Part shown: positions 44,707-64,000 of the stretch, in pieces
How positions within the stretch are numbered: the first letter of the stretch is position 1
How the letters are laid out: every line of letters begins with the position of its first letter
Origin: Trypanosoma brucei
Lineage: Eukaryota
Length of the DNA: 64,000 nucleotides
NCBI GenBank assembly: GCA_000002445.1
Contig: CP000066.1
Location: 1,536,001-1,600,000, forward strand
Direction of reading: 5' to 3'
Program-made: the position numbers and the translations under genes
The notes under the pieces: model-generated
Told to the model about the DNA's origin: nothing
The model's input: the letters and a program-made list of their open reading frames with translations, nothing else
Database searches by the model: none

Positions 44707-45873
44707 ATGGCAATCAAATCACGAGGAGTTAAAGTTGTAATTATAGTTTTTATTGCCGTGTATGTGTTAACAATTACAAATGTTCTCATTAGTTTACATC
44801 GTTTCCACCAAAATTCCCAAAAGGAGGTGGTTAAAATTCAACGAGATGAACCATTACCAGATTTTGAGTACACCGAAGATGACAAAATGGCGTTAGAATT
44901 TGTAACACCGCATATTATAAAGAAATGGCGGAATCATAATTATCTCGTAGCACTCGGTATTCCTTCACCAGATAATGAAGAGCGACGGCGGCGGAGACAA
45001 CTTCAACGGGACACATGTTGGAAATATCCGGGAGTTGCCACCGTAGAAAATAATTTTGAAGGAGATATGCTCGTAGCATATGTATTGGCTCGTCATCCAC
45101 AATTTGATTACAAATATTCACCTGAATTGAAGGATGAAGCAAATAAATGGCGGGATGTCATTACGCTCCCCATAAATGAAGGTCGTGTCACAACTAAAAA
45201 GAAATTAGGAGAAGTTGCGCATTGGGGAATTGATGCGGAAATTGGTATGAGTCGAAAAATATATTTGTGGTTTGAATTGGGAGCGCGCCTTCTTCCGAAA
45301 ACAAGTTATTTCTCTAAAGGTGATGATGACGCGTTTTTCCATTCACCGCAGTACATTATTGATTTGAGAACTTTACCGCGTCGTGGTGTTTATTGGGCAT
45401 TTCATTGGCGTATAAATCCAGTGAGGCCTTTTATATTTGGCCGTGGCCTCTTGTACACCATGTCGAGAGATGTTGTTAATAAATTTGTAACATATGAACC
45501 GGTACGCCGCCTTGTGCATGTGCCATTCAGTTTTGATCGGCTTCTTGAATTTAAGCAATCCATTATGGAATATGAAGATGCCATGGTCGGTCATGCACTT
45601 TCTTATCAAAATCCAGAAGAATTATTATTTGTGAATGAAAGTTGCTGCCGCTTCATCATATTGAATGGTAATGAGTGCAAGCCACCGAAAAATAACAATT
45701 TTGTAGTAGTTCATGGTATTCAAGAAGAAGAATACGCAATAATGATGGAACGCTTTAAAAATTACACAACTCCCGTTCCTGTTCAATTTATTCCCTCAAA
45801 ATATGGTTGGATGGCCAATTGCACATTACCACCAGATCCACAACGGCGGCGGGATGCGGAATGGACGGCATAA
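44707..45873 (+). CDS. Type II membrane glycosyltransferase of the trypanosome UDP-Gal/UDP-GlcNAc-dependent (GT67-like) family.
   Basis: An N-terminal signal anchor 'VKVVIIVFIAVYVLTITNVLISL' follows a short cytoplasmic tail. A DxD-type motif appears as 'SKGDDDAFF'. The length (388 aa) and layout match the large T. brucei beta-1,3-glycosyltransferase family. The family assignment is from memory. Confidence 0.55.
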   Translation: MAIKSRGVKVVIIVFIAVYVLTITNVLISLHRFHQNSQKEVVKIQRDEPLPDFEYTEDDKMALEFVTPHIIKKWRNHNYLVALGIPSPDNEERRRRRQLQRDTCWKYPGVATVENNFEGDMLVAYVLARHPQFDYKYSPELKDEANKWRDVITLPINEGRVTTKKKLGEVAHWGIDAEIGMSRKIYLWFELGARLLPKTSYFSKGDDDAFFHSPQYIIDLRTLPRRGVYWAFHWRINPVRPFIFGRGLLYTMSRDVVNKFVTYEPVRRLVHVPFSFDRLLEFKQSIMEYEDAMVGHALSYQNPEELLFVNESCCRFIILNGNECKPPKNNNFVVVHGIQEEEYAIMMERFKNYTTPVPVQFIPSKYGWMANCTLPPDPQRRRDAEWTA

Positions 45874-49999: not shown

Positions 50000-51472
50000 A
50001 TGCGCATTGGGAAGTATTGCGTCGTTTTTCTGCTAGTGTGGACGCAAGCAACCAAGAGAAGCGTGGGAAAACCCACAAATATTATAAATCAGGAAGAATT
50101 TAAAGCATTATGTGCTTTCGTGAATTTGGCGAATGAATCGGTAGACTACGCAGGTCTCGAAGCCGAAATCAGGGACGCGGCAGCAGATATCGGGGCTATT
50201 TTTCTTGCGTCGCAGCAAGAAAGCATTTCGAAATTGAGGGAGCAAATTGAGATCTGGCGCGAGGTTGAAGCAACCAATAACGGAGGGAACAACCGAGGCA
50301 TTAAAAAGTGGAGTGTTTGGGAGGAAGCGAGAAGAAAGCTAATAGATGAAGGCGGAACAAAATATGTGCAATGGGTTGAATTGGGCTTGAGTGATGCTGA
50401 GAAGCAGAAGATAGAGGAAGCTATGGATGAGACAGTCAAATGCATGGCGGAGGAGAACGGCTTGTGGGACACTTTGCGGGAAATGCCAGTAAAAGGAAGT
50501 ATAACAAAAGCAATATTCGGATCCAGGGAAAGGCAAGTGCAGATTATGAAAGGACGCGGTAGCCGCGAAACCGCTTGTGGCAGGGGATTATTCCCTGGAG
50601 ACTGGGCGGGCACGGCATTGAGCGCTGACTTACTGTGCCTGTGCGCCGCTACGGAACGCAGGGCCGCCACCAACGAGGGTTGCTGCACAGGATGCGAGAC
50701 AGGGGGAAATGGCGTTGCTTGGGATCCAAGGGTGCATAGTGAGGAGAGGTGGAATTTGCTTAGAAGTAAATGTGAAAAGGTCAGCAGCGGTACTCCCCTT
50801 TCAAGTCGAGCGCTGTCGGTTGCGGAGAGTACATTTTTCAACCAACTGAAGATCTCAAAAGGGTCAACATCAGGAAGACCAACGCTACTGGGTAAATTTG
50901 GAACTAGCTTTTCCGTGGGTTGTACCGGGGAAATCACCGAGAAAGAGGGACGTTGCGTTCGGTATAGCCACAGCCATGTTGACAGAAATAATCCAGCGCT
51001 ACCCTGGCTTACAAACTTAAGGGAGGCGGCAAATGCAGTAGATCAGTTGAATGCAGTTGATACAAAGCTCAAACATCTACGCGTTGGTATAGCCACCTTC
51101 CACACGAAGCATGTTGATTTTAAATCGCGTGAAAAAGGAAACGGCGGCGACCCTATTCTGGGAAGCGGTGGCGTAGAGGGTGAAGTTAACACCAATGAGT
51201 CAACGAAGGCGAACACAAACGATGGTAGAGCAAAAAAGGCTGGTGAAAGCAAAAGAACACCTGTCGACAACATTTCACATAAATGCGAAGGTTATAGGCA
51301 GGGAAAAACATGCAAAAGTCGAAAAGTGGAAACGGAATGTGACTGGGAGGAGGGTACATGCGTTGGCTCTGCCAGTGAGCCAGTCACTTCGCCTCTGAGG
51401 CAAAGACCACCTACTTCAGGGAAGGTAAACTCCATTAGATGCTCACTGAGTTTGTTTTTAATACTATTATAG
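50000..51472 (+). CDS. VSG-like (variant surface glycoprotein or VSG-related) gene, 490 aa, apparently intact.
   Basis: A signal peptide 'MRIGKYCVVFLLVWTQATKRSVG' is present. The N-terminal domain has the 'ALCAFVNLA' motif and a B-type-like Cys cluster 'LLCLCAATERRAATNEGCCTGCETGG'. The C-terminal domain has four Cys ('CEGYRQGKTCKSRKVETECDWEEGTCVGS'), resembling VSG C-terminal domains of the 'CKWEG-TCKDS' type. A hydrophobic tail 'IRCSLSLFLILL' is compatible with a GPI signal. The size is typical for a VSG. I could not find the canonical VSG 3'UTR 16-mer (TGATATATTTTAACAC) downstream. Confidence 0.55.
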   Translation: MRIGKYCVVFLLVWTQATKRSVGKPTNIINQEEFKALCAFVNLANESVDYAGLEAEIRDAAADIGAIFLASQQESISKLREQIEIWREVEATNNGGNNRGIKKWSVWEEARRKLIDEGGTKYVQWVELGLSDAEKQKIEEAMDETVKCMAEENGLWDTLREMPVKGSITKAIFGSRERQVQIMKGRGSRETACGRGLFPGDWAGTALSADLLCLCAATERRAATNEGCCTGCETGGNGVAWDPRVHSEERWNLLRSKCEKVSSGTPLSSRALSVAESTFFNQLKISKGSTSGRPTLLGKFGTSFSVGCTGEITEKEGRCVRYSHSHVDRNNPALPWLTNLREAANAVDQLNAVDTKLKHLRVGIATFHTKHVDFKSREKGNGGDPILGSGGVEGEVNTNESTKANTNDGRAKKAGESKRTPVDNISHKCEGYRQGKTCKSRKVETECDWEEGTCVGSASEPVTSPLRQRPPTSGKVNSIRCSLSLFLILL

Positions 51473-54400
51473 TCATCGTGAGCGAAACCATTATTAAGAA
51501 TGGTTTAGGTTATAAAATGGTTTAGCTAACTATTTTATTCGATCTACAGGGGGAGATATGTGTTCTTACTTTATTATGTAGGACTGCTTTTGGTGGTTAT
51601 CATGATTATGTTCTTTCAGTATGTAGGCTGCCGCTGGAACCCACACATTTAAGCTGATCATGCCTCCTATGGAAGGTTTTATGGGGGTAAAATACAGGGT
51701 GTTGTGGACTAGTTTTACCTCGAAAGGGGAATGTACATCAAGAATCCGGGGGCTGTCCTTCATATCTATTTGCTCCCTGTGTGCAACTCGTTTGCTGTGA
51801 AGAAGAGTGGGGCGTTTATTCACTATTTTGTTTTTTTCTTTGCGACAACGTACTCCGAGTACTAAGGATGGACATCCACTGAGAAGTTATACGCTGGCTG
51901 GTATATGCTTTTGGTGGAGTCTATGTATACCTTGGCGCATAGAGATGGCGAAGTTGGGAAGGTGAGCGCGTTGTGTTGTCTTTGGTAAGCTAGTATACTG
52001 CTGTAAAGCGAGTTTTAATGACGGGGGAGTATTTACGGTGCGGGTATTATGTTGCTTGGATTGCATTCTTAGGAAAATTTGGACGGAGAAGTGTTCAGTT
52101 GGGAAGATTATTACCACGAAATGGAGTGGCATTCGCGAGTGTGTGCAGGAAAATATATCCTCGTAGAAAGTGTGCTGATGGGACAGTACATTTTCGTGGG
52201 GAATATAAGGCTCTTTACCACAGTATTTTTGTTGCGGGGATAACTGGTTACTCACTGGCACCAAGTGCCGCCAATCTCAAGCTCATGTCGTTGTTGGTGT
52301 TGCCTCTTTCAGTGAGAGGCAACGGCACAGACGAAGGTACATCAGCGGGTAGTGTTGCACAGCGCATAGGTTAAGGGGAATTCATTTCGGTAAGGAATTC
52401 CGCTAAACACCGGCAGCTCGAAAATTACGCACCGCTAAAGTGATAGTTGAAGCTTCAACCGCCTAAAGTTACCGTTGGAAAACAAAAATGCAATATGTGC
52501 AACAGAGGTCTTGTTTGCACATGGAAATGGGCCTGTCTTACCGTTGAACTTTCCGGCGATTTTGGAGTCACACGGCTGCCAGCCCGTCAGGTGTGCAACC
52601 AAAAGGCAACCTCACTCTGAAGAATCCCACTGCCGCATTTGCAGGTGGTAAAACTGCAATGGATAGCGGTACGGAACCGACTTCAGAAGAACGAACTGCG
52701 AGGCATAACAGCGGGGGAACGGGCACCAAGGGAGAAAGAAGCAAGGTGGTTTTCCGTGCCGCAGGGTATGTCGCTCCAGGGAAACAGGTATCTAGTTCGA
52801 CTCCTGCAAACTCTCTTAACAGCGGCGCTTGTTCCTCGCCCCATATCACCACTGACCGAGGAGCAAGCATTTTCCACTCCTCATCATACCCAATCTATCA
52901 TACAACGAATCCGATTGTTATGTCCTTTTTATACCATATAAATATATCTTCTCTTTCAAAGCAGTAAAGTGCTGGAGGAGGTCAATACGGAAACATTTAT
53001 AATTATAAAAATTGTTTCTACGAATCATTTTTCTAGAGGAAGTGCATAGAGATGCCAAATTACCCTAACCCGAACCAATTGAAGAATGTTTGAATGTGCT
53101 GAAGCACTCTCTCAAAAGATGGAAGAGGAGGTACGACATTGCCCAAATAATACAACTCCGTGTTGAAAGTAGTGAATTGAAGTACAGGCACGGATCAACA
53201 TTAGCTCGCATCAGTTTTCACGCTACAAACTAAGTCTTTTAATTGGGTTAGTGCAGCAGCCGAGATAAGCGCTGAGGTTATCAACTTGATGGAAGTAGTG
53301 TCTGTCACAAACAAACCTTCGAGGTGCGGAGCAGAGGTCTTATCGGCACGTATATTACAAATTTCGGGGAGAAAGGCTTAGGGAAAAGTAAGATTATCGT
53401 ACAAACACCCGTCAGTTGGGGGTTCGTCAAGAAAATATAAGTCAGATAGATTATAAATTAGGAATCGGGATGTATACATTTTTTTACATGATAAATTTTG
53501 GAGCAGCGGAAGTAAAGGTTTCCATGGGTAGAAGATGGGGATGTGCACGGCTAAGGTGTTGGTGTTTTTGATACTGGCATCCAGGTAGCAAGTGTAAAGG
53601 GTGCTAATTGTGATGAGTTGAAGATTCTTCGTGGTTTCCTGAGGCCTGTTTGGGGGTATTTAAATGTGGTTGACGAAGGAAGCAAGGAACGCGTTACAGG
53701 CACTTGAAACCAAGGAATCGAGTCCTTACTGGGGCGATATCCCATGGCACCGATAGGTTGTAGAACAGAAAGCACACATTCAATCAGCGACGAATGCAGC
53801 ATTTGTTCCGTGTGCGAGGAAAAAGTGAGCAACGTACTTAAAATAAACCCCGAAAACCCTTTGTCAACACCCAGGACAAAGCAAAGCGACTTGAGCAACC
53901 ACAAAGAATTGACGAATTTGGTCGAACAAGCCTCTGAGCTGTACATGAAAAACTCACTGAAAGTCAGAGTGACGGCAGAAGATTTTCAAAAGGATGCAGA
54001 GGAAATACTCTACGGTATAGAAGACAAAAAAAAGTCCAAAAGGTATGGAACTAAGAAGGGAGCAGGCTTGCGGTAAAGAAGTATCAAGCTGAAACAACTA
54101 CTTTCGGCGTGCGCTAACTATAGACCTGATGTGCTTGTGCTTTCCCCCAGAACTACCTTTAGCTGCCGCGTTGTGTTGCGATAGGTGCAACATGGAACCA
54201 AACACCGCGACCTGGGACGTAGAAACCTCCACCAAGATAACCGATTTTATGATCGAAAAATGTGGAGATTGCCCGCTTCCATAAGTGAGTTTTGTGAAAA
54301 CTATGAAGAAAAACTTCGTGAAGCTAAATGATCTCGGAAAGTTTAGGAAGAAATCCAGAGGAAAGGCTTTCTGTGCTGTAGGTTGGGACAATAGGGAAGA

Positions 54401-56951: not shown

Positions 56952-57944
56952 ATGGAGAACAAATATTTAGTGTGGTGCATGTTTTTTTGTTTAACGGTTG
57001 TGGGGGGCAAAGCTAATGCAGTGAAAACAACGCTAAAGAAAGAAACGAATTGCCACACAACTGTTAAAGCACTGTTCAACAAACGTGAAAACTGTCATGA
57101 TCTGGCCTCCGATGCAACGAAAATAAATGAGGATGTTGACATCGGAACAGATGCAGATAGATGGACTGCTTGCACATGGTTAGAATATGATAAGAGGCGT
57201 ACGGAGACACAATGCATATTGAGGTTTAACAACACATATGGAGAGAAATTAGTATGCACCTACGAAACAAAGGGCAATCGCCAAGACCTAAGTTGCAAAC
57301 CAGAGGGTCGTTGCGAAGACGCTCGCGAGCGGTACCTTTTAGGGGAAGAAGGATGTCCGAAGCCTGCACCACGTGAAGAACCAAAAAGAAACAAAACCGA
57401 AAGGTGTCTTGATGAGGTTTATGGGTCATTCAGCGGTGACCAGGAGTGTGCGAAACTTAAAATAGGAAGCGAGGTCGCCGAGCAAATTATATTCAGGGAG
57501 AACGGAGATGACAAAACACCAGAATGTATAGAAGCAAGTGGCCCCCCAGAGTCGAAAGTGGTTGGAGAAGCATGCGTAATAAAGTTGCGAACCGAGCCAC
57601 ACCCATCAGAATATATTTGCAAAATGGAGGGTTCTGGTGAGGAAAGGAAAATAAAATGCACAAGAGAAACATCGAAAACAGTTCCTCAACCTACGACCAC
57701 AAGGAAGAGACGAGGCAGTACTGGATCCATGCGCAAAAGAAGTGACGACGGTGGTAACACTGAGGTCACCCTGAAAGAAGATAAAGACAAAACACAAGAT
57801 GAGGATGAAGGCCAAAAAGAAGAAAGAAAAGAAGAAAGCGGTGAAGAAACTGGTACAGCAAAAGCTCGAATCAAAAGCAAAACTTATTGGAAATCAAATA
57901 ATCCTATTATCATGCTTTTAACACTTTCGTTATTGTTGCTTTAA
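56952..57944 (+). CDS. Cys-rich surface protein with a signal peptide and a C-terminal GPI-anchor-like signal. It is the divergent first member (330 aa) of the tandem family that follows.
   Basis: It is about 45-50% identical to the downstream copies. Conserved blocks are 'TQCILRFNNTYGEKLVCTYETKGNRQDLSC' (versus 'TQCILKFENAEGNRIACTYETEGGQGNVSC') and 'PESKVVGEACVIKLRTEPHPSEYICKMEGSGEERKIKC'. The C-terminus 'WKSNNPIIMLLTLSLLLL' is identical. Confidence 0.7.
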   Translation: MENKYLVWCMFFCLTVVGGKANAVKTTLKKETNCHTTVKALFNKRENCHDLASDATKINEDVDIGTDADRWTACTWLEYDKRRTETQCILRFNNTYGEKLVCTYETKGNRQDLSCKPEGRCEDARERYLLGEEGCPKPAPREEPKRNKTERCLDEVYGSFSGDQECAKLKIGSEVAEQIIFRENGDDKTPECIEASGPPESKVVGEACVIKLRTEPHPSEYICKMEGSGEERKIKCTRETSKTVPQPTTTRKRRGSTGSMRKRSDDGGNTEVTLKEDKDKTQDEDEGQKEERKEESGEETGTAKARIKSKTYWKSNNPIIMLLTLSLLLL

Positions 57945-58767
57945 TACTGTTTAATAATAAACGGTAATGTAAACTGTTTGGAAGAAAGTATGCTTTTAAC
58001 GGAGAAGGGAAGTGAGTGTATCAAAACATTTTTCTTGTAAGACATACATTAAGGGAACATTTTTATGTTTTTTTTTTGTCACGCGTCACTGCTGTAAAAA
58101 AAACTTCTTGCGCTCAAGTTGTATCGAAAGTATTGAATTTTCAACGATGTTGTTCGGTGGGGAAGGTAAGGGGAATAGGATATATAGTTGTGTCGGGGAC
58201 GGCGTTCTGTTTGTTGAAAGGGGTAAAGAGAGGAAAAAACCCTACACCGGGTGAAAGTAACTGACTGATGAAGTTCGTTTGGATCGATAGACAAGTGGAA
58301 CTCGCCGCAAAAAGGTTGTAACAGCATTTAACCGGCACATGCGGCTTAGCGTTTTAGGTTGAGAAATGCACGTATAAAGGCACGGATGCTCAGGAAATAC
58401 CCTTATTTCTGATAACATAATTGGACGCTAAGCTAGAGAAGGCACAACACCAGATTCGAGAATACAACAGAAAAATGACGGGCGATGGCACCGACGAAGA
58501 GGAACAATTGAAGCGGGTCGCTGAAATCGATAACATCAATGCCCACGGCAGCCTCCTCTCGACGCGCGGACAAAACAAGAAAAAAAAATGCAGCTTCAGA
58601 AAAAAAAAAAAATGTTTCTTTGGGAAACCACTTGAAACTGTTGAGGAAAAGAGGGTTTGCCACGCCCAGCCGCTAATGATAATGTGAAATGGAAATTTAC
58701 AGTATCCATTTAACCTACAATATCATGATTCCTACACCTTTATCATTCTTCCTTTAGCGAAAACAAA

Positions 58768-59829
58768 ATGAGGAAACAACATGTCATATACTACGTATTT
58801 TTCTGCTTAGGAGCCATAGGAAGCAGAGGAGAGACAGAACCAATAACAATACAAAAAGGAACGGAGTGCCACAAAGCATTGGAAACAGCGTTCACCACGC
58901 CCAAAAACTGTGAGAATGTAAGCACAGCGATAAGCGAAATGCCTGAAAATGTTAGCATTGAAACATTCCCGGGGGCATGGACCGTGTGTCAATTCATGGA
59001 AAACGAAAAAGAAAGCACAGTCACGCAATGCATTTTGAAGTTCGAAAACGCAGAGGGAAATCGAATAGCGTGCACCTACGAAACCGAGGGCGGACAAGGA
59101 AACGTAAGCTGCACACAGGAAGTGGATGCTCCGGTGGCTTATCATCCATACTGTGAGGGAGCCGAATACGATTATACTTATCATGACGAAAGCCACGGTC
59201 ATGGGAGCGGGGGCTATGAGCGGCGTTGTCCCGAGCCGGGTCCACGTCCTGCGCCACTGAATGAAGAAGCTCACAGGTGTGTTGCCGACGTCCTTGTTGC
59301 ATTTGGTGGTCACCATGAATGTGCAAAACTCTACGGCACAGATCCGGCACTCGATCCTGAAGATGTCATCTTCGGCGAGAAAGGAGATGACAAACCAAAA
59401 TGCACGGAGGCAGATCGACCCGAGGTGTCCACATTGGTTGGAGAAGCATGCGAGGTAAAATTGCGGACCAAACCAGAACCAGACGAATACTTGTGTAAGG
59501 TAGAAACCTCTAACGGTAAAAGAAAAATAAAGTGTACCCCCAAAACACCAAAAACAATTCCTCAACAAGCGGACACAGTAAAGAAACCAGATACCACTGA
59601 ATCCATGCAGAAAAAAGCTGACGATGGTGGTAAAACTGAGGTAACACCAGAAGTAAAAGATGGGCAAAAAGATGAAAAGGGTGGGAAAGAAAGGCAAGAA
59701 AAGCAAAAAATGGAAAATAATACTGGAAAAAGCAATGAAGCAGCGACAAACACTAAAACGCAGGCTTCTTCTTGGAAATCAAATAATCCTATTATCATGT
59801 TTTTAACACTTTCTTTATTGTTGCTTTAG
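58768..59829 (+). CDS. Cys-rich, probably GPI-anchored surface protein, 353 aa (tandem copy 2).
   Basis: A signal peptide 'MRKQHVIYYVFFCLGAIGSRG' is followed by two internally homologous Cys modules. Module A ends 'TQCILKFENAEGNRIACTYETEGGQGNVSC', and module B ends 'EACEVKLRTKPEPDEYLCKVETSNGKRKIKC'. A Lys/Glu/Thr-rich stalk and a hydrophobic tail 'SWKSNNPIIMFLTLSLLLL' follow. N-glycosylation sequons are NVS x2 and NNT. Confidence 0.75.
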   Translation: MRKQHVIYYVFFCLGAIGSRGETEPITIQKGTECHKALETAFTTPKNCENVSTAISEMPENVSIETFPGAWTVCQFMENEKESTVTQCILKFENAEGNRIACTYETEGGQGNVSCTQEVDAPVAYHPYCEGAEYDYTYHDESHGHGSGGYERRCPEPGPRPAPLNEEAHRCVADVLVAFGGHHECAKLYGTDPALDPEDVIFGEKGDDKPKCTEADRPEVSTLVGEACEVKLRTKPEPDEYLCKVETSNGKRKIKCTPKTPKTIPQQADTVKKPDTTESMQKKADDGGKTEVTPEVKDGQKDEKGGKERQEKQKMENNTGKSNEAATNTKTQASSWKSNNPIIMFLTLSLLLL

Positions 59830-60645
59830 TATCATTTAATAAACGGTAATGTAGACTGTTTTGAAGAAAGTATGCTTTTAACGGAGAAGGGAAGTGAGTG
59901 TATCAAAACATTTTTCTTGACAGACGTACATTAAGGGAACATTTTTATTGTTTACTTGCCATATTGCACTGCTAAAAAACTTCTCGTGCTGGAGTTGCGT
60001 GCGAAGTATTAGATTTCTTCACCGATTCTTTTTTGTAGCGAAGGTAAGGGGAATAGGATATGTAGTTGTGTCGGGGACGGCGTTCTGTTTGTTGAAAGGG
60101 ATAGCAGGAAGAGAAAACTCTACCCCGGGTGAAAGCAACTGACTTGTGCAGTTCGTTCGGATCGATAGACAGGTGGAAATCGCCGCAAAAAGGTTGTAAC
60201 AGCATTTGATCGGCACATGTGGTGTAGCGTTTTGGGTTGAGAAATGCACGCATAAAGGCACGGATGCTCAGGAAATACCCTTATTTCTGATAACATAATT
60301 GGACGCTAAGCTAGAGAAGGCACAACACCAGATTCGAGAATACAACAGAAAAATGACGGGCGATGGCACCGACGAAGAGGAACAATTGAAGCGGGTCGCT
60401 GAAATCGATAACATCAATGCCCACGGCAGCCTCCTCTCGACGCGCGGACAAAACAAGAAAAAAAAATGCAGCTTCAGAAAAAAAAAAAAATGTTTCTTTG
60501 GGAAACCACTTGAAACTGTTGAGGAAAAGAGGGTTTGCCACGCCCAGCCGCTAATGATAATGTGAAATGGAAATTTACAGTATCCATTTAACCTACAATA
60601 TCATGATTCCTACACCTTTATCATTCTTCCTTTAGCGAAAACAAA

Positions 60646-61707
60646 ATGAGGAAACAACATGTCATATACTACGTATTTTTCTGCTTAGGAGCCATAGGAA
60701 GCAGAGGAGAGACAGAACCAATAACAATACAAAAAGGAACGGAGTGCCACAAAGCATTGGAAACAGCGTTCACCACGCCCAAAAACTGTGAGAATGTAAG
60801 CACAGCGATAAGCGAAATGCCTGAAAATGTTAGCATTGAAACATTCCCGGGGGCATGGACCGTGTGCCAATTCATGGAAAACGAAAAAGAAAGCACAGTC
60901 ACGCAATGCATTTTGAAGTTCGAAAACGCAGAGGGAAATCGAATAGCGTGCACCTACGAAACCGAGGGCGGACAAGGAAACGTAAGCTGCACACAGGAAG
61001 TGGATGCTCCGGTGGCTTATCATCCATACTGTGAGGGAGCCGAATACGATTATACTTATCATGACGAAAGCCACGGTCATGGGAGCGGGGGCTATGAGCG
61101 GCGTTGTCCCGAGCCGGGTCCACGTCCTGCGCCACTGAATGAAGAAGCTCACAGGTGTGTTGCCGACGTCCTTGTTGCATTTGGTGGTCACCATGAATGT
61201 GCAAAACTCTACGGCACAGATCCGGCACTCGATCCTGAAGATGTCATCTTCGGCGAGAAAGGAGATGACAAACCAAAATGCACGGAGGCAGATCGACCCG
61301 AGGTGTCCACATTGGTTGGAGAAGCATGCGAGGTAAAATTGCGGACCAAACCAGAACCAGACGAATACTTGTGTAAGGTAGAAACCTCTAACGGTAAAAG
61401 AAAAATAAAGTGTACCCCCAAAACACCAAAAACAATTCCTCAACAAGCGGACACAGTAAAGAAACCAGATACCACTGAATCCATGCAGAAAAAAGCTGAC
61501 GATGGTGGTAAAACTGAGGTAACACCAGAAGTAAAAGATGGGCAAAAAGATGAAAAGGGTGGGAAAGAAAGGCAAGAAAAGCAAAAAATGGAAAATAATA
61601 CTGGAAAAAGCAATGAAGCAGCGACAAACACTAAAACGCAGGCTTCTTCTTGGAAATCAAATAATCCTATTATCATGTTTTTAACACTTTCTTTATTGTT
61701 GCTTTAG
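60646..61707 (+). CDS. Cys-rich, probably GPI-anchored surface protein, 353 aa (tandem copy 3, identical to copy 2).
   Basis: The protein is identical to the 58768-59829 product. The complete 1878-bp unit, 5' and 3' flanks included, appears identical at the nucleotide level. Confidence 0.75.
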   Translation: MRKQHVIYYVFFCLGAIGSRGETEPITIQKGTECHKALETAFTTPKNCENVSTAISEMPENVSIETFPGAWTVCQFMENEKESTVTQCILKFENAEGNRIACTYETEGGQGNVSCTQEVDAPVAYHPYCEGAEYDYTYHDESHGHGSGGYERRCPEPGPRPAPLNEEAHRCVADVLVAFGGHHECAKLYGTDPALDPEDVIFGEKGDDKPKCTEADRPEVSTLVGEACEVKLRTKPEPDEYLCKVETSNGKRKIKCTPKTPKTIPQQADTVKKPDTTESMQKKADDGGKTEVTPEVKDGQKDEKGGKERQEKQKMENNTGKSNEAATNTKTQASSWKSNNPIIMFLTLSLLLL

Positions 61708-62457
61708 TATCATTTAATAAACGGTAATGTAGACTGTTTTGAAGAAAGTATGCTTTTAACGGAGAAGGGAAGTGAGTGTATCAAAACATTTTTCTTGACA
61801 GACGTACATTAAGGGAACATTTTTATTGTTTACTTGCCATATTGCACTGCTAAAAAACTTCTCGTGCTGGAGTTGCGTGCGAAGTATTAGATTTCTTCAC
61901 CGATTCTTTTTTGTAGCGAAGGTAAGGGGAATAGGATATGTAGTTGTGTCGGGGACGGCGTTCTGTTTGTTGAAAGGGATAGCAGGAAGAGAAAACTCTA
62001 CCCCGGGTGAAAGCAACTGACTTGTGCAGTTCGTTCGGATCGATAGACAGGTGGAAATCGCCGCAAAAAGGTTGTAACAGCATTTGATCGGCACATGTGG
62101 TGTAGCGTTTTGGGTTGAGAAATGCACGCATAAAGGCACGGATGCTCAGGAAATACCCTTATTTCTGATAACATAATTGTACGCTAAGCTAGAGAAGGCA
62201 CAACACCAGATTCGAGAATACAACAGAAAAGTGAAGACGGGTGATTTAAGCGGGTCACTGAAATCAAGATCATTAATACAGACGGCAGCATCAGTGGAGG
62301 GGGAAATATTTTTTTTAATACTTGAAACTGTTGAGGAAAAGAGGGTTTGCCACGCCCAGCCGCTAATGATAATGTGAAATGGAAATTTACAGTATCCATT
62401 TAACCTACAATATCATGATTCCTACACCTTTATCATTCTTCCTTTAGCGAAAACAAA

Positions 62458-63522
62458 ATGAGGAAACAACATGTCATATACTACGTATTTTTCTGCTTAG
62501 GAGCCATAGGAAGCAGAGGAGAGACAGAACCAATAACAATACAAAAAGGAACGGAGTGCCACAAAGCATTGGAAACAGCGTTCACCACGCCCAAAAACTG
62601 TGAGAATGTAAGCACAGCGATAAGCGAAATGCCTGAAAATGTTAGCATTGAAACATTCCCGGGGGCATGGACCGTGTGTCAATTCATGGAAAACGAAAAA
62701 GAAAGCACAGTCACGCAATGCATTTTGAAGTTCGAAAACGCAGAGGGAAATCGAATAGCGTGCACCTACGAAACCGAGGGCGGACAAGGAAACGTAAGCT
62801 GCACACAGGAAGTGGATGCTCCGGTGGCTTATCACCCACACTGTGGGGAACATGGAAGTGACCATGGTTATGATAACGGCTATGATGGTTATAATGGCGT
62901 GGCGTATGGTGAACTGGGTTGTCCCGAGCCTGGTCCACCTCCTGCCCAACCGAACGATGAAGCTCACAGGTGCATTGCCGACGTTTTCGCTGCATTTAGT
63001 GGCCACCTTCCATGTGCAAAATTCTACGGCACAGATCAGGCATTCGGTCCTAAGGAAGTCGTCTTCGGCGAGAACGGAAATGAAAAACCAGAATGTGCAG
63101 AAGGAAGCGAACCCCCGGAATCCAAGGTGGTTGGGGAAACATGTGAAGTAAAATTGCGGACAAAAAAACAACCAGAAGAATATGTATGTAAGGTAGAAAC
63201 CTCTAACGGTAAAAGAAAAATAAAGTGTACCCCCAAAACACCAAAAACAATTCCTCAACAAGCGGACACAGTAAAGAAACCAGATACCACTGAATCCATG
63301 CAGAAAAAAGCTGACGATGGTGGTAAAACTGAGGTAACACCAGAAGTAAAAGATGGGCAAAAAGATGAAAAGGGTGGGAAAGAAAGGCAAGAAAAGCAAA
63401 AAATGGAAAATAATACTGGAAAAAGCAATGAAGCAGCGACAAACACTAAAACGCAGGCTTCTTCTTGGAAATCAAATAATCCTATTATCATGTTTTTAAC
63501 ACTTTCTTTATTGTTGCTTTAG
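62458..63522 (+). CDS. Cys-rich, probably GPI-anchored surface protein, 354 aa (tandem copy 4, mosaic).
   Basis: Residues 1 to about 125 and about 245 to the end are identical to copies 2 and 3. The central module B region (about nt 62835-63195) is diverged: 'HCGEHGSDHGYDNGYDGYNGVAYGELGCPEPGPPPAQPNDEAHRCIADVFAAFSGHLPCAKFYGTDQAFGPKEVVFGENGNEKPECAEGSEPPESKVVGETCEVKLRTKKQPEEY'. In places it is closer to copy 1. Confidence 0.75.
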   Translation: MRKQHVIYYVFFCLGAIGSRGETEPITIQKGTECHKALETAFTTPKNCENVSTAISEMPENVSIETFPGAWTVCQFMENEKESTVTQCILKFENAEGNRIACTYETEGGQGNVSCTQEVDAPVAYHPHCGEHGSDHGYDNGYDGYNGVAYGELGCPEPGPPPAQPNDEAHRCIADVFAAFSGHLPCAKFYGTDQAFGPKEVVFGENGNEKPECAEGSEPPESKVVGETCEVKLRTKKQPEEYVCKVETSNGKRKIKCTPKTPKTIPQQADTVKKPDTTESMQKKADDGGKTEVTPEVKDGQKDEKGGKERQEKQKMENNTGKSNEAATNTKTQASSWKSNNPIIMFLTLSLLLL

Positions 63523-64000
63523 TATCATTTAATAAACGGTAATGTAAACTGTTTGGAAGAAAGCATGCTTTTAACGGAGAAGGGAAGTGAGTGTATCAAA
63601 ACATTTTTCTTGACAGACGTACATTAAGGGAACATTTTTATTGTTTACTTGCCATATTGCACTGCTAAAAAACTTCTCGTGCTGGAGTTGCGTGCGAAGT
63701 ATTAGATTTCTTCACCGATTCTTTTTTGTAGCGAAGGTAAGGGGAATAGGATATGTAGTTGTGTCGGGGACGGCGTTCTGTTTGTTGAAAGGGATAGCAG
63801 GAAGAGAAAACTCTACCCCGGGTGAAAGCAACTGACTTGTGCAGTTCGTTCGGATCGATAGACAGGTGGAAATCGCCGCAAAAAGGTTGTAACAGCATTT
63901 GATCGGCACATGTGGTGTAGCGTTTTGGGTTGAGAAATGCACGCATAAAGGCACGGATGCTCAGGAAATACCCTTATTTCTGATAACATAATTGGACGCT

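What the first reader, a model, noticed from the sequence alone, without database searches (positions are those of the whole stretch)
62835..63195. Mosaic paralog in the array suggests segmental gene conversion confined to module B
Copy 4 is 100% identical at the nucleotide level to copies 2 and 3 across its first ~375 nt and last ~330 nt. A central block of about 360 nt, encoding the second Cys module, has patchy divergence of roughly 20-25% and short indels ('YHPYCEGAEYDYTYHDESHGHGSGGYERRC' becomes 'YHPHCGEHGSDHGYDNGYDGYNGVAYGELGC'). At several positions the diverged block matches the founder copy 1 instead (for example 'PESKVVGE.C' in 'RTKKQPEEYVCKVE' versus 'RTEPHPSEYICKME'). Sharp identical-to-diverged boundaries are what segmental gene conversion produces. 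Module B would then be the variable face, possibly the ligand- or antibody-exposed one, while module A, the stalk and the anchor are kept uniform.
Basis: seen in the sequence. Interest (0 to 1): 0.6.

Follow-up and report, generated by a model that had tools for sequence, protein, structure and literature searches.

The report
Mosaic copy in trypanosome surface-gene array
One gene in a known tandem array of Trypanosoma brucei-only cysteine-rich secreted or surface proteins carries an old, diverged 352-base block between flanks identical to its neighbours, which is a clean but fairly ordinary footprint of incomplete gene conversion, not a new system.

Summary
The window is T. brucei brucei TREU927 chromosome 3. 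The array is the published Tb927.3.5690–.5730 array, and copy 4 (62458–63522) is by gene order probably Tb927.3.5720.

Copy 4 is identical to copy 2 over its first 377 nt and last 336 nt. All 94 substitutions and one 3-nt indel lie in 62835–63186 (P≈1e-45).

- **Donor:** Copy 1 is not the donor. With copy 1 as outgroup, copy 4 and copy 2 each keep the ancestral base equally often (29 vs 30 sites, interspersed).
- **Age:** The block has dS≈0.52 against 0 in the flanks, about nine times the brucei/gambiense ortholog dS (0.056). It is an old lineage, not fast local evolution.
- **Selection:** dN/dS is 0.55, so there is no signal of diversifying selection. Between copies 1 and 2, module A is at least as diverged as module B.
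- **Extent:** The block covers the linker plus four of the six module B cysteines. Unit 4 also has a second island of similar divergence upstream (62180–62319, 24% plus 66 nt of deletions) and a 3-SNP patch downstream.

The best reading is an old variant repeat unit mostly overwritten by its neighbours, with islands left over. Import from an unsampled donor cannot be excluded. The family is an orphan with no usable structure model. Interest is low to moderate.

The parts
56952..57944 (+). Copy 1 (founder; AAZ10600, by order Tb927.3.5690), 330 aa. It is the ortholog of the single T. b. gambiense gene Tbg972.3.6170.
   Evidence: ORF. Exact protein match and accessions. 97.4% nt identity to the gambiense gene in L001. 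Orthology is stated in PMC2854126.
58768..59829 (+). Copy 2 (canonical paralog, AAZ10601), 353 aa. It has a signal peptide, two 6-Cys modules, a linker with 2 Cys, a charged stalk and a hydrophobic GPI-type tail.
60646..61707 (+). Copy 3 (canonical paralog, AAZ10602). Its protein is identical to copy 2, with one private synonymous SNP at 60867.
62458..63522 (+). Copy 4 (mosaic paralog, AAZ10603, by order Tb927.3.5720), 354 aa. The ORF is intact and all cysteines are conserved.
62835..63186 (+). CDS island of old divergence (codons 126–243). It covers the linker loop Cys129–Cys155, the Pro-rich hinge and module B up to just before Cys244.
   Evidence: 94 substitutions in 351 nt plus a 3-nt insertion at 62907–62909. 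dS 0.52, dN 0.29. Equal branch lengths against the copy 1 outgroup.
62180..62319 (+). Intergenic island of old divergence upstream of copy 4, corresponding to 60302–60507 in unit 3. It has 23.6% substitutions and deletions of 19, 43 and 4 nt, which explain the 1815 vs 1878 nt unit length.
   Evidence: Polarised with the gambiense outgroup: the two large deletions are derived in unit 4, and substitutions occur on both lineages.
63547..63564 (+). Mini-island in the 3' flank of copy 4. Three SNPs (A, G, C vs G, T, T in units 3 and 4); two of them match the 3' flank of copy 1.
62320..62834 (+). Homogenised tract between the two islands (proximal 5' flank plus the first 377 nt of the CDS). It is identical to unit 2 and has one difference from unit 3.
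63187..63546 (+). Homogenised tract: the last 336 nt of the CDS (end of module B, stalk, GPI signal) and the start of the 3' flank. It is identical to units 2 and 3.
61708..62179 (+). Homogenised intergenic tract downstream of copy 3, 100% identical to the one downstream of copy 2.

Best explanation
Repeat unit 4 is what remains of an older, diverged variant of the paralog unit. Short-tract gene conversion from the neighbouring canonical copies (concerted evolution) has overwritten most of it.

Three patches escaped: the 352-nt CDS island, the 140-nt intergenic island and a 3-SNP patch.

The likely reason they persist is inferred, not shown. At about 25% mismatch, the islands themselves block heteroduplex extension, because T. 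brucei homologous recombination is impeded by mismatches and uses short-patch mismatch repair. Conversion tracts that start in the identical flanks therefore stop at the island edges.

The result is two protein isoforms of a T. brucei-only, signal-peptide plus GPI-tail, cysteine-rich protein. They differ only in the linker and most of the second Cys module.

Shown: the mosaic, the different ages of its segments, the equal branch lengths, and the absence of a donor in the data searched. Inferred: which segments were converted, the mismatch barrier, and any functional meaning.
For: - **Different ages.** Flanks have dS = dN = 0 over 375 + 333 aligned nt, against block dS = 0.52.
- **Independent old lineage.** With copy 1 as outgroup, the site patterns in the block are 77 shared-derived, 29 where copy 4 is ancestral and 30 where copy 2 is ancestral. 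This gives the tree ((c2,c4),c1) with equal terminal branches.
- **Age calibration.** The copy 1 vs T. b. gambiense ortholog dS is only 0.056, so the block lineage far predates the subspecies split, while the flanks are younger than any detectable mutation.
- **Several islands of one age.** The second island has similar depth (23.6%) in non-coding DNA of the same unit. The gambiense outgroup shows changes on both lineages (6 vs 12, p = 0.24). A third 3-SNP patch keeps two copy 1-like states. Together these make at least six breakpoints in one unit, which fits patchy overwriting better than a single event.
- **No donor.** None was found elsewhere in the window, in the 5.8-billion-protein word search (only the two array isoforms) or in the exhaustive profile search (only the array and its gambiense ortholog).
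- **Position in the array.** Copy 4 has canonical copies on both sides, because copy 5 has the same protein as copies 2 and 3.
- **Published background.** Concerted evolution with partial conversion is documented as the general regime of T. brucei tandem arrays (PMC1855330). Mismatch-impeded recombination and short-patch repair in T. brucei are documented in PMC1904282.
Against: - The direction of conversion cannot be read from one genome. The same picture would arise if a canonical unit had received patches from an unsampled diverged donor.
- Only one strain and one assembly were available, with no reads, so neither copy order nor haplotype assignment could be checked.
- The published recombination screen recorded no conversion event for this array (Table S1 of PMC1855330). 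That is expected when no donor is in the alignment and the topology does not change between segments.
- The mismatch-barrier step is taken from transfection experiments, not from this locus.
Confidence: 0.55

Rival explanations
1. Import. A canonical unit received the diverged sequence by gene conversion from a donor not present in the data. Candidates are the other chromosome homolog, another strain's array brought in by mating, or a lost, unassembled or unannotated paralog. One heteroduplex of about 1 kb (62180–63186, perhaps to 63564) with patchy short-patch mismatch repair would leave two or three imported patches.
For: The identical-to-diverged boundaries are sharp. The islands have similar divergence, consistent with one donor. 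Short-patch mismatch repair during T. brucei recombination is documented (PMC1904282).
Against: No donor appears in the window or in any protein collection searched. Heteroduplex formation across about 25% mismatch is disfavoured in T. brucei (PMC1904282). This model needs an extra, unseen family member, whereas the relic model needs none.
Confidence: 0.28
2. Assembly or haplotype-merging artefact. The variant block is real DNA, but it belongs to the other homolog or to a different position or copy number, and the assembler stitched it between canonical flanks.
For: Authors of the genome comparisons warn that copy number and allelic variation are hard to separate in assembled tandem arrays (PMC2854126). 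The units are otherwise near-identical.
Against: An assembler cannot invent a 352-nt block with an intact reading frame, conserved cysteines and a coherent phylogenetic position. The block and the IGS island are shorter than a Sanger read, so their junctions with identical flanks should be seen within single reads (inference). Private SNPs in copy 3 and in the copy 4 flank show that copies were resolved. Even if the block is allelic, the mosaic stays.
Confidence: 0.08
3. Conversion from founder copy 1 into copy 4.
For: Copy 4 shares PPESKVVGE and 29 nucleotide states with copy 1 against copy 2. BLAST extends the copy 1/gambiense alignment further into copy 4 than into copies 2 and 3.
Against: Copy 2 shares 30 states with copy 1 against copy 4, and 77 sites unite copies 2 and 4 against copy 1. 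The two classes are interspersed (runs test z = 0.66). Block dS between copies 1 and 4 is about 1.7.
Confidence: 0.03
4. Local accelerated evolution of copy 4 after a recent duplication (positive selection or hypermutation on an exposed face), with no recombination.
For: The block encodes an extracellular Cys module and a low-complexity linker of a putative surface protein. Published commentary speaks of rapid structural divergence (PMC2854126).
Against: Synonymous divergence is as inflated as non-synonymous divergence (dS 0.52, ω 0.55). A non-coding island is equally diverged. Half the changes lie on the canonical lineage, not on copy 4.
Confidence: 0.03

Closest known systems
Tb927.3.5690–.5730 tandem array of T. 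brucei TREU927 (array 'Tb20' of Jackson 2007, PMC1855330; homologs of Tbg972.3.6170 in Jackson et al. 2010, PMC2854126)
   Same: It is this locus. The proteins match the TREU927 entries AAZ10600–AAZ10604 exactly. There are five copies with a repeat unit of about 1.8 kb. The proteins are described as cysteine-rich secretory proteins with 2 unique isoforms, and only the first gene has a gambiense ortholog.
   Different: The main texts of the papers I could read list the array and its average divergence. They do not describe the identical/diverged/identical mosaic of the fourth copy, the intergenic island or the age estimates. The 2007 conversion screen recorded no event for this array. I could not see Supplementary Fig. 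S2 of the 2010 paper.
Concerted evolution with partial (allelic) gene conversion in T. brucei tandem arrays, e.g. ISG65, GRESAG4, BARP and RHS arrays (Jackson 2007)
   Same: Units are homogenised by conversion, yet blocks of variation remain. Coding and non-coding parts of a unit have different histories, and conversion tracts cross UTR/CDS borders.
   Different: Here the retained variation is confined to one unit, in two or three sharply bounded islands. It has no partner sequence elsewhere in the array, so topology-based tests cannot see it.
Mosaic VSG formation by segmental gene conversion in T. brucei
   Same: Same organism and the same class of mechanism: short homology-guided conversion segments that create chimeric genes for cysteine-containing surface proteins. 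This rests on my own knowledge and the abstracts.
   Different: This is not a VSG, and it has no Pfam or sequence relation to one. It is not in an expression site. There is no archive of donors and no evidence of somatic switching. The mosaic is a germline feature of a chromosome-internal array near the core/subtelomere border.
Escape from concerted evolution by sequence divergence in duplicated genes (general population-genetic models of gene conversion between duplicates; own knowledge)
   Same: Islands of high divergence sit in otherwise homogenised duplicates. Divergence itself, or selection, prevents conversion.
   Different: Whether selection maintains the island here is untested, and pairwise ω is 0.55.

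Membership tests
Tb927.3.5690–.5730 array (T. brucei spp.-specific cysteine-rich secretory/GPI protein family) | Protein sequences identical to the TREU927 chromosome 3 entries | tested here: met
   Copy 4 is 100% identical to P0001 (AAZ10603). Copies 2 and 3 equal P0002 (AAZ10601, AAZ10602, AAZ10604). Copy 1 equals AAZ10600. The contig is 1,653,225 bp.
Tb927.3.5690–.5730 array (T. brucei spp.-specific cysteine-rich secretory/GPI protein family) | Five tandem copies of about 1.8 kb, with the first copy orthologous to the single gambiense gene | tested here: met
   Spacings are 1878, 1878 and 1815 nt. A fifth copy is inferred from accessions. The gambiense locus L001 has one gene that is 97.4% identical to copy 1. 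Literature.
Tb927.3.5690–.5730 array (T. brucei spp.-specific cysteine-rich secretory/GPI protein family) | Restricted to T. brucei (no homologs elsewhere) | tested here: met
   The exhaustive profile search of 1.84 billion representatives found only P0002 and P0004. There were no Pfam hits and no PDB hits.
Secreted, GPI-anchored surface protein | N-terminal signal peptide and C-terminal hydrophobic GPI-addition signal | tested here: inconclusive
   By eye, the sequence starts MRKQHVIYYVFFCLGAIGSRG and ends SSWKSNNPIIMFLTLSLLLL. No signal-peptide or GPI predictor was available and there are no experimental data.
Mosaic made by segmental gene conversion | Abrupt switch between identical and diverged segments, beyond chance | tested here: met
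   0 differences in 713 nt against 94 in 351 nt, P≈1e-45.
Mosaic made by segmental gene conversion | Silent and non-coding sites share the discontinuity (different coalescence depth, not selection) | tested here: met
   dS is 0.52 in the block and 0 in the flanks. The intergenic island is 23.6% diverged.
Mosaic made by segmental gene conversion | An identifiable donor or parent sequence for each segment | tested here: not met
   The flanks have parents (copies 2, 3 and 5). The diverged islands have none in the window or the protein collections. Copy 1 is excluded.
Mosaic made by segmental gene conversion | Confirmation in independent reads, assemblies or strains | not testable with these tools
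   TREU927 proteins are not indexed in the contig collection. No other T. brucei brucei strain data were reachable.
Diversifying selection on an exposed variable face | dN/dS above 1 in the variable block, and the block more variable than the rest in older comparisons | tested here: not met
   ω is 0.55 for copy 2 vs copy 4 in the block. For copy 1 vs copy 2, the block has dN 0.43 and the 5' part with module A has dN 0.52.
Diversifying selection on an exposed variable face | Variable residues map to the solvent-exposed surface of a folded module | tested here: inconclusive
   Two AlphaFold2 runs gave mean pLDDT 36.1 and 38.2. No fold search was attempted on such models.
Internal duplication (module A / module B) | The two 6-Cys modules are homologous | tested here: inconclusive
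   Cys spacings are 13-25-13-13-12 and 13-26-15-14-12. hhalign aligns all six Cys in register at 22% identity, E = 0.036. BLASTP is not significant. Both low-confidence models give a helix plus a four-strand meander for each module.

The most novel reading that the evidence does not exclude
The two block haplotypes (copy 2/3/5-type and copy 4-type) are anciently diverged isoforms of a T. brucei-specific surface protein, with dS≈0.5, about nine times the brucei/gambiense split. They are actively kept apart by selection inside an otherwise homogenising array. That would make a two-allotype ligand- or antibody-facing linker and module B embedded in a uniform scaffold.

As a corollary, the 'T. b. 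brucei-specific recent duplications' reported for this locus would really be old paralogs that T. b. gambiense and T. evansi lost.
Probability: 0.15. Interest if true: 0.5.

Novelty: new member of a known kind. Interest (0 to 1): 0.27.

Why it matters
The locus shows unusually cleanly how concerted evolution and retained divergence coexist within a single repeat unit of a parasite surface-protein array.

Silent-site dating also matters for a published reading of this locus as a very recent, rapidly diverging T. b. brucei-specific duplication. The paralogs look much older than the subspecies split, so they were more probably lost in T. b. gambiense and T. evansi.

If the two isoforms prove to be expressed surface proteins, the 118-residue variable segment is the obvious place to look for a functional or antigenic difference. 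None of this changes how such arrays are understood to evolve. It is a well-resolved example, not a new mechanism.

Tried and rejected
- **Copy 1 as donor:** rejected by site-pattern counts and a runs test.
- **Local positive selection or hypermutation:** rejected by dS and relative-rate results.
- **Donor elsewhere in the window:** blastn with word size 7 found nothing outside the array for either island. The array's intergenic DNA has no similarity to the DNA upstream of copy 1.
- **Donor or relatives in protein space:** the word-indexed search found only the two isoforms. The exhaustive profile search found only the array and its gambiense ortholog.
- **Family assignment:** Pfam gave only sub-threshold noise. 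PDB sequence search gave nothing.
- **Structure:** full-length copy 4 and the ectodomain alone both failed (pLDDT 36.1 and 38.2). I therefore did not run fold searches and could not map exposure.
- **Other strains or reads:** exact-protein look-ups of the three TREU927 proteins found no contigs. Only the gambiense locus was retrieved.
- **Literature by UniProt or RefSeq accession:** no hits. Searches by gene ID found only the three genome-survey papers. The cell-surface phylome paper does not mention the locus in its main text.
- **Trans-splicing signal:** the copy 4 intergenic island lies upstream of the likely polypyrimidine tract and AG just before the ATG (62424–62447, identical in all units). 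I therefore dropped the idea that it changes the splice acceptor.
Full report
**What the region is.**
The last 7 kb of the window hold four same-strand ORFs of 330–354 aa: 56952–57944, 58768–59829, 60646–61707 and 62458–63522. Direct repeats are spaced 1878, 1878 and 1815 nt apart. The proteins are exact matches to 'hypothetical protein, conserved' entries of Trypanosoma brucei brucei TREU927 on a 1,653,225-bp contig.

One protein sequence (copies 2 and 3) carries three accessions, AAZ10601, AAZ10602 and AAZ10604. Copy 4 is AAZ10603. A fifth copy with the canonical protein therefore lies just beyond the window, and copy 4 has canonical copies on both sides.

The literature identifies the array as Tb927.3.5690–.5730.
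- Jackson 2007 (PMC1855330) lists it as tandem array 20.
- Jackson et al. 2010 (PMC2854126) describes it as a T. b. brucei array of 'cysteine-rich secretory proteins', homologous to the single gene Tbg972.3.6170, with five copies and two unique isoforms.
- Carnes et al. 2015 (PMC4288722) reports the duplication as absent from T. evansi STIB805 and T. b. gambiense DAL972.

Assigning copy 4 to Tb927.3.5720 is my inference from gene order.

**The protein.**
By inspection, each copy has these parts:
- a hydrophobic N-terminal signal-like segment;
- a first module with six cysteines (C34, 48, 74, 88, 102, 115 in copy 4);
- a linker with two cysteines (C129, C155) enclosing a His/Tyr/Gly/Asp-rich loop that copy 1 largely lacks;
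- a proline-rich hinge;
- a second six-cysteine module (C172, 186, 213, 229, 244, 257);
- a Lys/Glu/Thr-rich stalk;
- a hydrophobic C-terminal tail typical of GPI-addition signals.

The cysteines of the mature protein are conserved in all copies.

The two modules have nearly the same cysteine spacing. A profile-profile alignment puts all six in register, but only marginally (22% identity, E = 0.036), and BLASTP is not significant.

The family has no Pfam match and no PDB match by sequence. In an exhaustive HMM search of 1.84 billion representative proteins, its only relatives were itself and the gambiense ortholog. It is a T. brucei-restricted orphan.

Two AlphaFold2 runs, on the full length and on the ectodomain, gave mean pLDDT 36.1 and 38.2. 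No fold comparison or exposure mapping was justified.

**Checking the observation.**
Copy 4 is base-for-base identical to copy 2 over 62458–62834 (377 nt) and 63187–63522 (336 nt). Copy 3 has one private synonymous SNP, at 60867.

Every difference lies in 62835–63186, codons 126–243. There are 94 substitutions in 351 aligned nt (26.8%) and one 3-nt insertion, and amino-acid identity is 53.8%. The chance that 94 substitutions all fall in that third of the gene is about 1e-45. Conditioned on sites that vary at all among copies 1, 2 and 4, it is about 1e-38.

Aligning whole repeat units shows that unit 4 has a second diverged island in the intergenic DNA, at 62180–62319, corresponding to 60302–60507 in unit 3. 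It has 33 substitutions in 140 aligned nt (23.6%) plus deletions of 19, 43 and 4 nt. These deletions account for the shorter unit (1878 − 66 + 3 = 1815).

Between the two islands, 515 nt (62320–62834) are again identical to unit 2.

Just after the copy 4 stop codon, three SNPs (63547, 63555, 63564) distinguish its 3' flank from those of copies 2 and 3. Two of them match the 3' flank of copy 1.

One unit therefore contains at least six identical/diverged junctions.

**Is copy 1 the source?**
No. In a codon alignment of copies 1, 2 and 4, the ungapped block sites fall into these classes:

| Site pattern | Count |
|---|---|
| Invariant | 152 |
| Copies 2 and 4 agree against copy 1 | 77 |
| Copy 4 agrees with copy 1 | 29 |
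| Copy 2 agrees with copy 1 | 30 |
| All three differ | 15 |

The 29 and 30 sites are interspersed (runs test z = 0.66). Equally many sites show the reverse. The block's tree is ((2,4),1) with equal terminal branches (binomial p = 1.0).

**Age and selection.**
Nei–Gojobori estimates:

| Comparison | Region | dS | dN | ω |
|---|---|---|---|---|
| Copy 2 vs 4 | Block | 0.52 | 0.29 | 0.55 |
| Copy 2 vs 4 | Both flanks | 0 | 0 | – |
| Copy 1 vs 2 | 5' part (with module A) | 1.06 | 0.52 | 0.49 |
| Copy 1 vs 2 | Block | 1.49 | 0.43 | 0.29 |
| Copy 1 vs 2 | 3' part | 0.87 | 0.35 | 0.40 |

For calibration I retrieved the gambiense locus (L001). Its single gene is 97.4% identical to copy 1, with dS = 0.056 and dN = 0.020.

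The two block lineages therefore separated roughly nine times further back than the two subspecies, while the flanks were homogenised too recently to have gained a single mutation.

Three conclusions follow:
1. The discontinuity reflects genealogy, not selection on the protein. Silent sites and a non-coding island show it too.
2. There is no pairwise signal of diversifying selection.
3. Module A is not intrinsically more constrained than module B. Its uniformity among copies 2–4 comes from recent homogenisation.

**Polarising the intergenic island.**
The DNA downstream of the gambiense gene contains a roughly 70%-identical homolog of the array's intergenic segment (L001 11477–11691 vs 60245–60465, E = 6e-24; alignment). 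Using it as outgroup gives two results:
- the 19-nt and 43-nt deletions are derived in unit 4;
- substitutions lie on both lineages (6 sites where unit 4 keeps the outgroup state, 12 where unit 3 does; p = 0.24).

The intergenic island thus behaves like the CDS island, as an independent old lineage.

**Mechanism.**
The pattern needs several short non-reciprocal exchanges. A single unequal crossover would give one junction, not six.

Two directions fit the data.

*Relic model (preferred).* Unit 4 was an old diverged variant of the paralog unit. Conversion tracts templated by its canonical neighbours have overwritten all but two or three patches. The reasons for preferring it:
- it needs no unseen sequence;
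- the islands have similar depth;
- copy 4 sits between canonical copies;
- no donor exists in the window or in the protein collections.

The persistence of the islands has a ready explanation, which is inference. T. brucei homologous recombination depends strictly on homology length, is impeded by mismatches, and repairs mismatches in short patches (Barnes & McCulloch 2007, PMC1904282). Tracts would therefore abort on reaching about 25% mismatch.

*Import model (rival).* A canonical unit acquired the patches from a diverged donor on the other homolog, in another strain, or in unassembled DNA, through one long heteroduplex with patchy repair. A single genome cannot exclude this.

An assembly or haplotype-merging artefact can change where the block sits. 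It cannot change the fact that the block exists with an intact frame, conserved cysteines and a coherent phylogenetic position.

**Relation to published work.**
Jackson 2007 describes exactly this regime for T. brucei arrays in general: homogenisation by conversion coexisting with retained variation, and tracts that ignore CDS/UTR borders. Its Table S1 records no conversion event for array 20. That is understandable, because the segments do not differ in topology and the islands have no partner in the alignment.

Jackson et al. [quoted passage not shown] The silent-site distances here (about 1 between copy 1 and the paralogs, 0.5 between the two block types, 0.056 between subspecies orthologs) argue instead for old paralogs later lost from gambiense and T. 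evansi. The gambiense 3' flank fits a deletion junction but does not prove one:
- it tracks copy 1's flank at 98→83% identity up to about 58240;
- it then has a gambiense-only insertion and about 170 nt (58241–58414) with little similarity;
- it then has about 70%-identical intergenic sequence.

**Verdict.**

This is a well-resolved instance of a known process in a published locus, with an orphan surface-type protein of unknown function. Interest is low to moderate.

Noticed in passing
window 56952–63522 vs L001 10001–10985: Silent-site distances are about 0.9–1.5 between copy 1 and the paralogs and 0.52 between the two block types, against 0.056 for the brucei/gambiense orthologs. The 'T. b. 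brucei-specific, very recent' duplications reported for this locus therefore look much older than the subspecies split and were more likely lost in T. b. gambiense and T. evansi.
   Followed up: partly
L001 10001–10985 (T. b. gambiense Tbg972.3.6170): Relative to TREU927 copy 1, the gambiense ortholog has a 1-nt and a 4-nt deletion (alignment columns 172 and 868) plus a 3-nt deletion. These shift the reading frame twice. It is annotated 'LOW QUALITY PROTEIN', so it is either a pseudogene or a sequencing error.
   Followed up: partly
window 50137–53883 (ORF 50000–51472): About 3.7 kb of TREU927 sequence is replaced by about 250 nt in T. b. gambiense (L001 6691–6942). It includes most of a 490-aa VSG-like ORF that has a signal peptide and a hydrophobic tail.
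   Followed up: no
L001 11270–12944; window 58238–58600: The gambiense chromosome 3 assembly ends 1982 nt after the single gene. Its flank loses orthology-level identity to TREU927 at about window 58240, then has a gambiense-only insertion. It then has a segment about 70% identical to the array's intergenic DNA. This may be a deletion junction.
   Followed up: partly
window 58421–58687 and 60299–60565: An 88-aa ORF (MDAKLEKAQHQIREYNRK…) lies in the intergenic DNA upstream of copies 2 and 3. In unit 4 the 19- and 43-nt deletions of the intergenic island disrupt it, so it is probably not a conserved coding sequence.
   Followed up: no
window 58807–59706, 60685–61584, 62497–63399 (minus strand): Antisense ORFs of about 300 aa overlap each paralog CDS. 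They are most likely a by-product of the purine-rich sense strand (AT skew 0.2–0.3 over 54–64 kb), not genes.
   Followed up: no
window 44707–45873: A 388-aa ORF with an N-terminal membrane anchor resembles, from memory, the trypanosome UDP-Gal/GlcNAc-dependent glycosyltransferase family. It is conserved in gambiense (L001 1321–2487).
   Followed up: no
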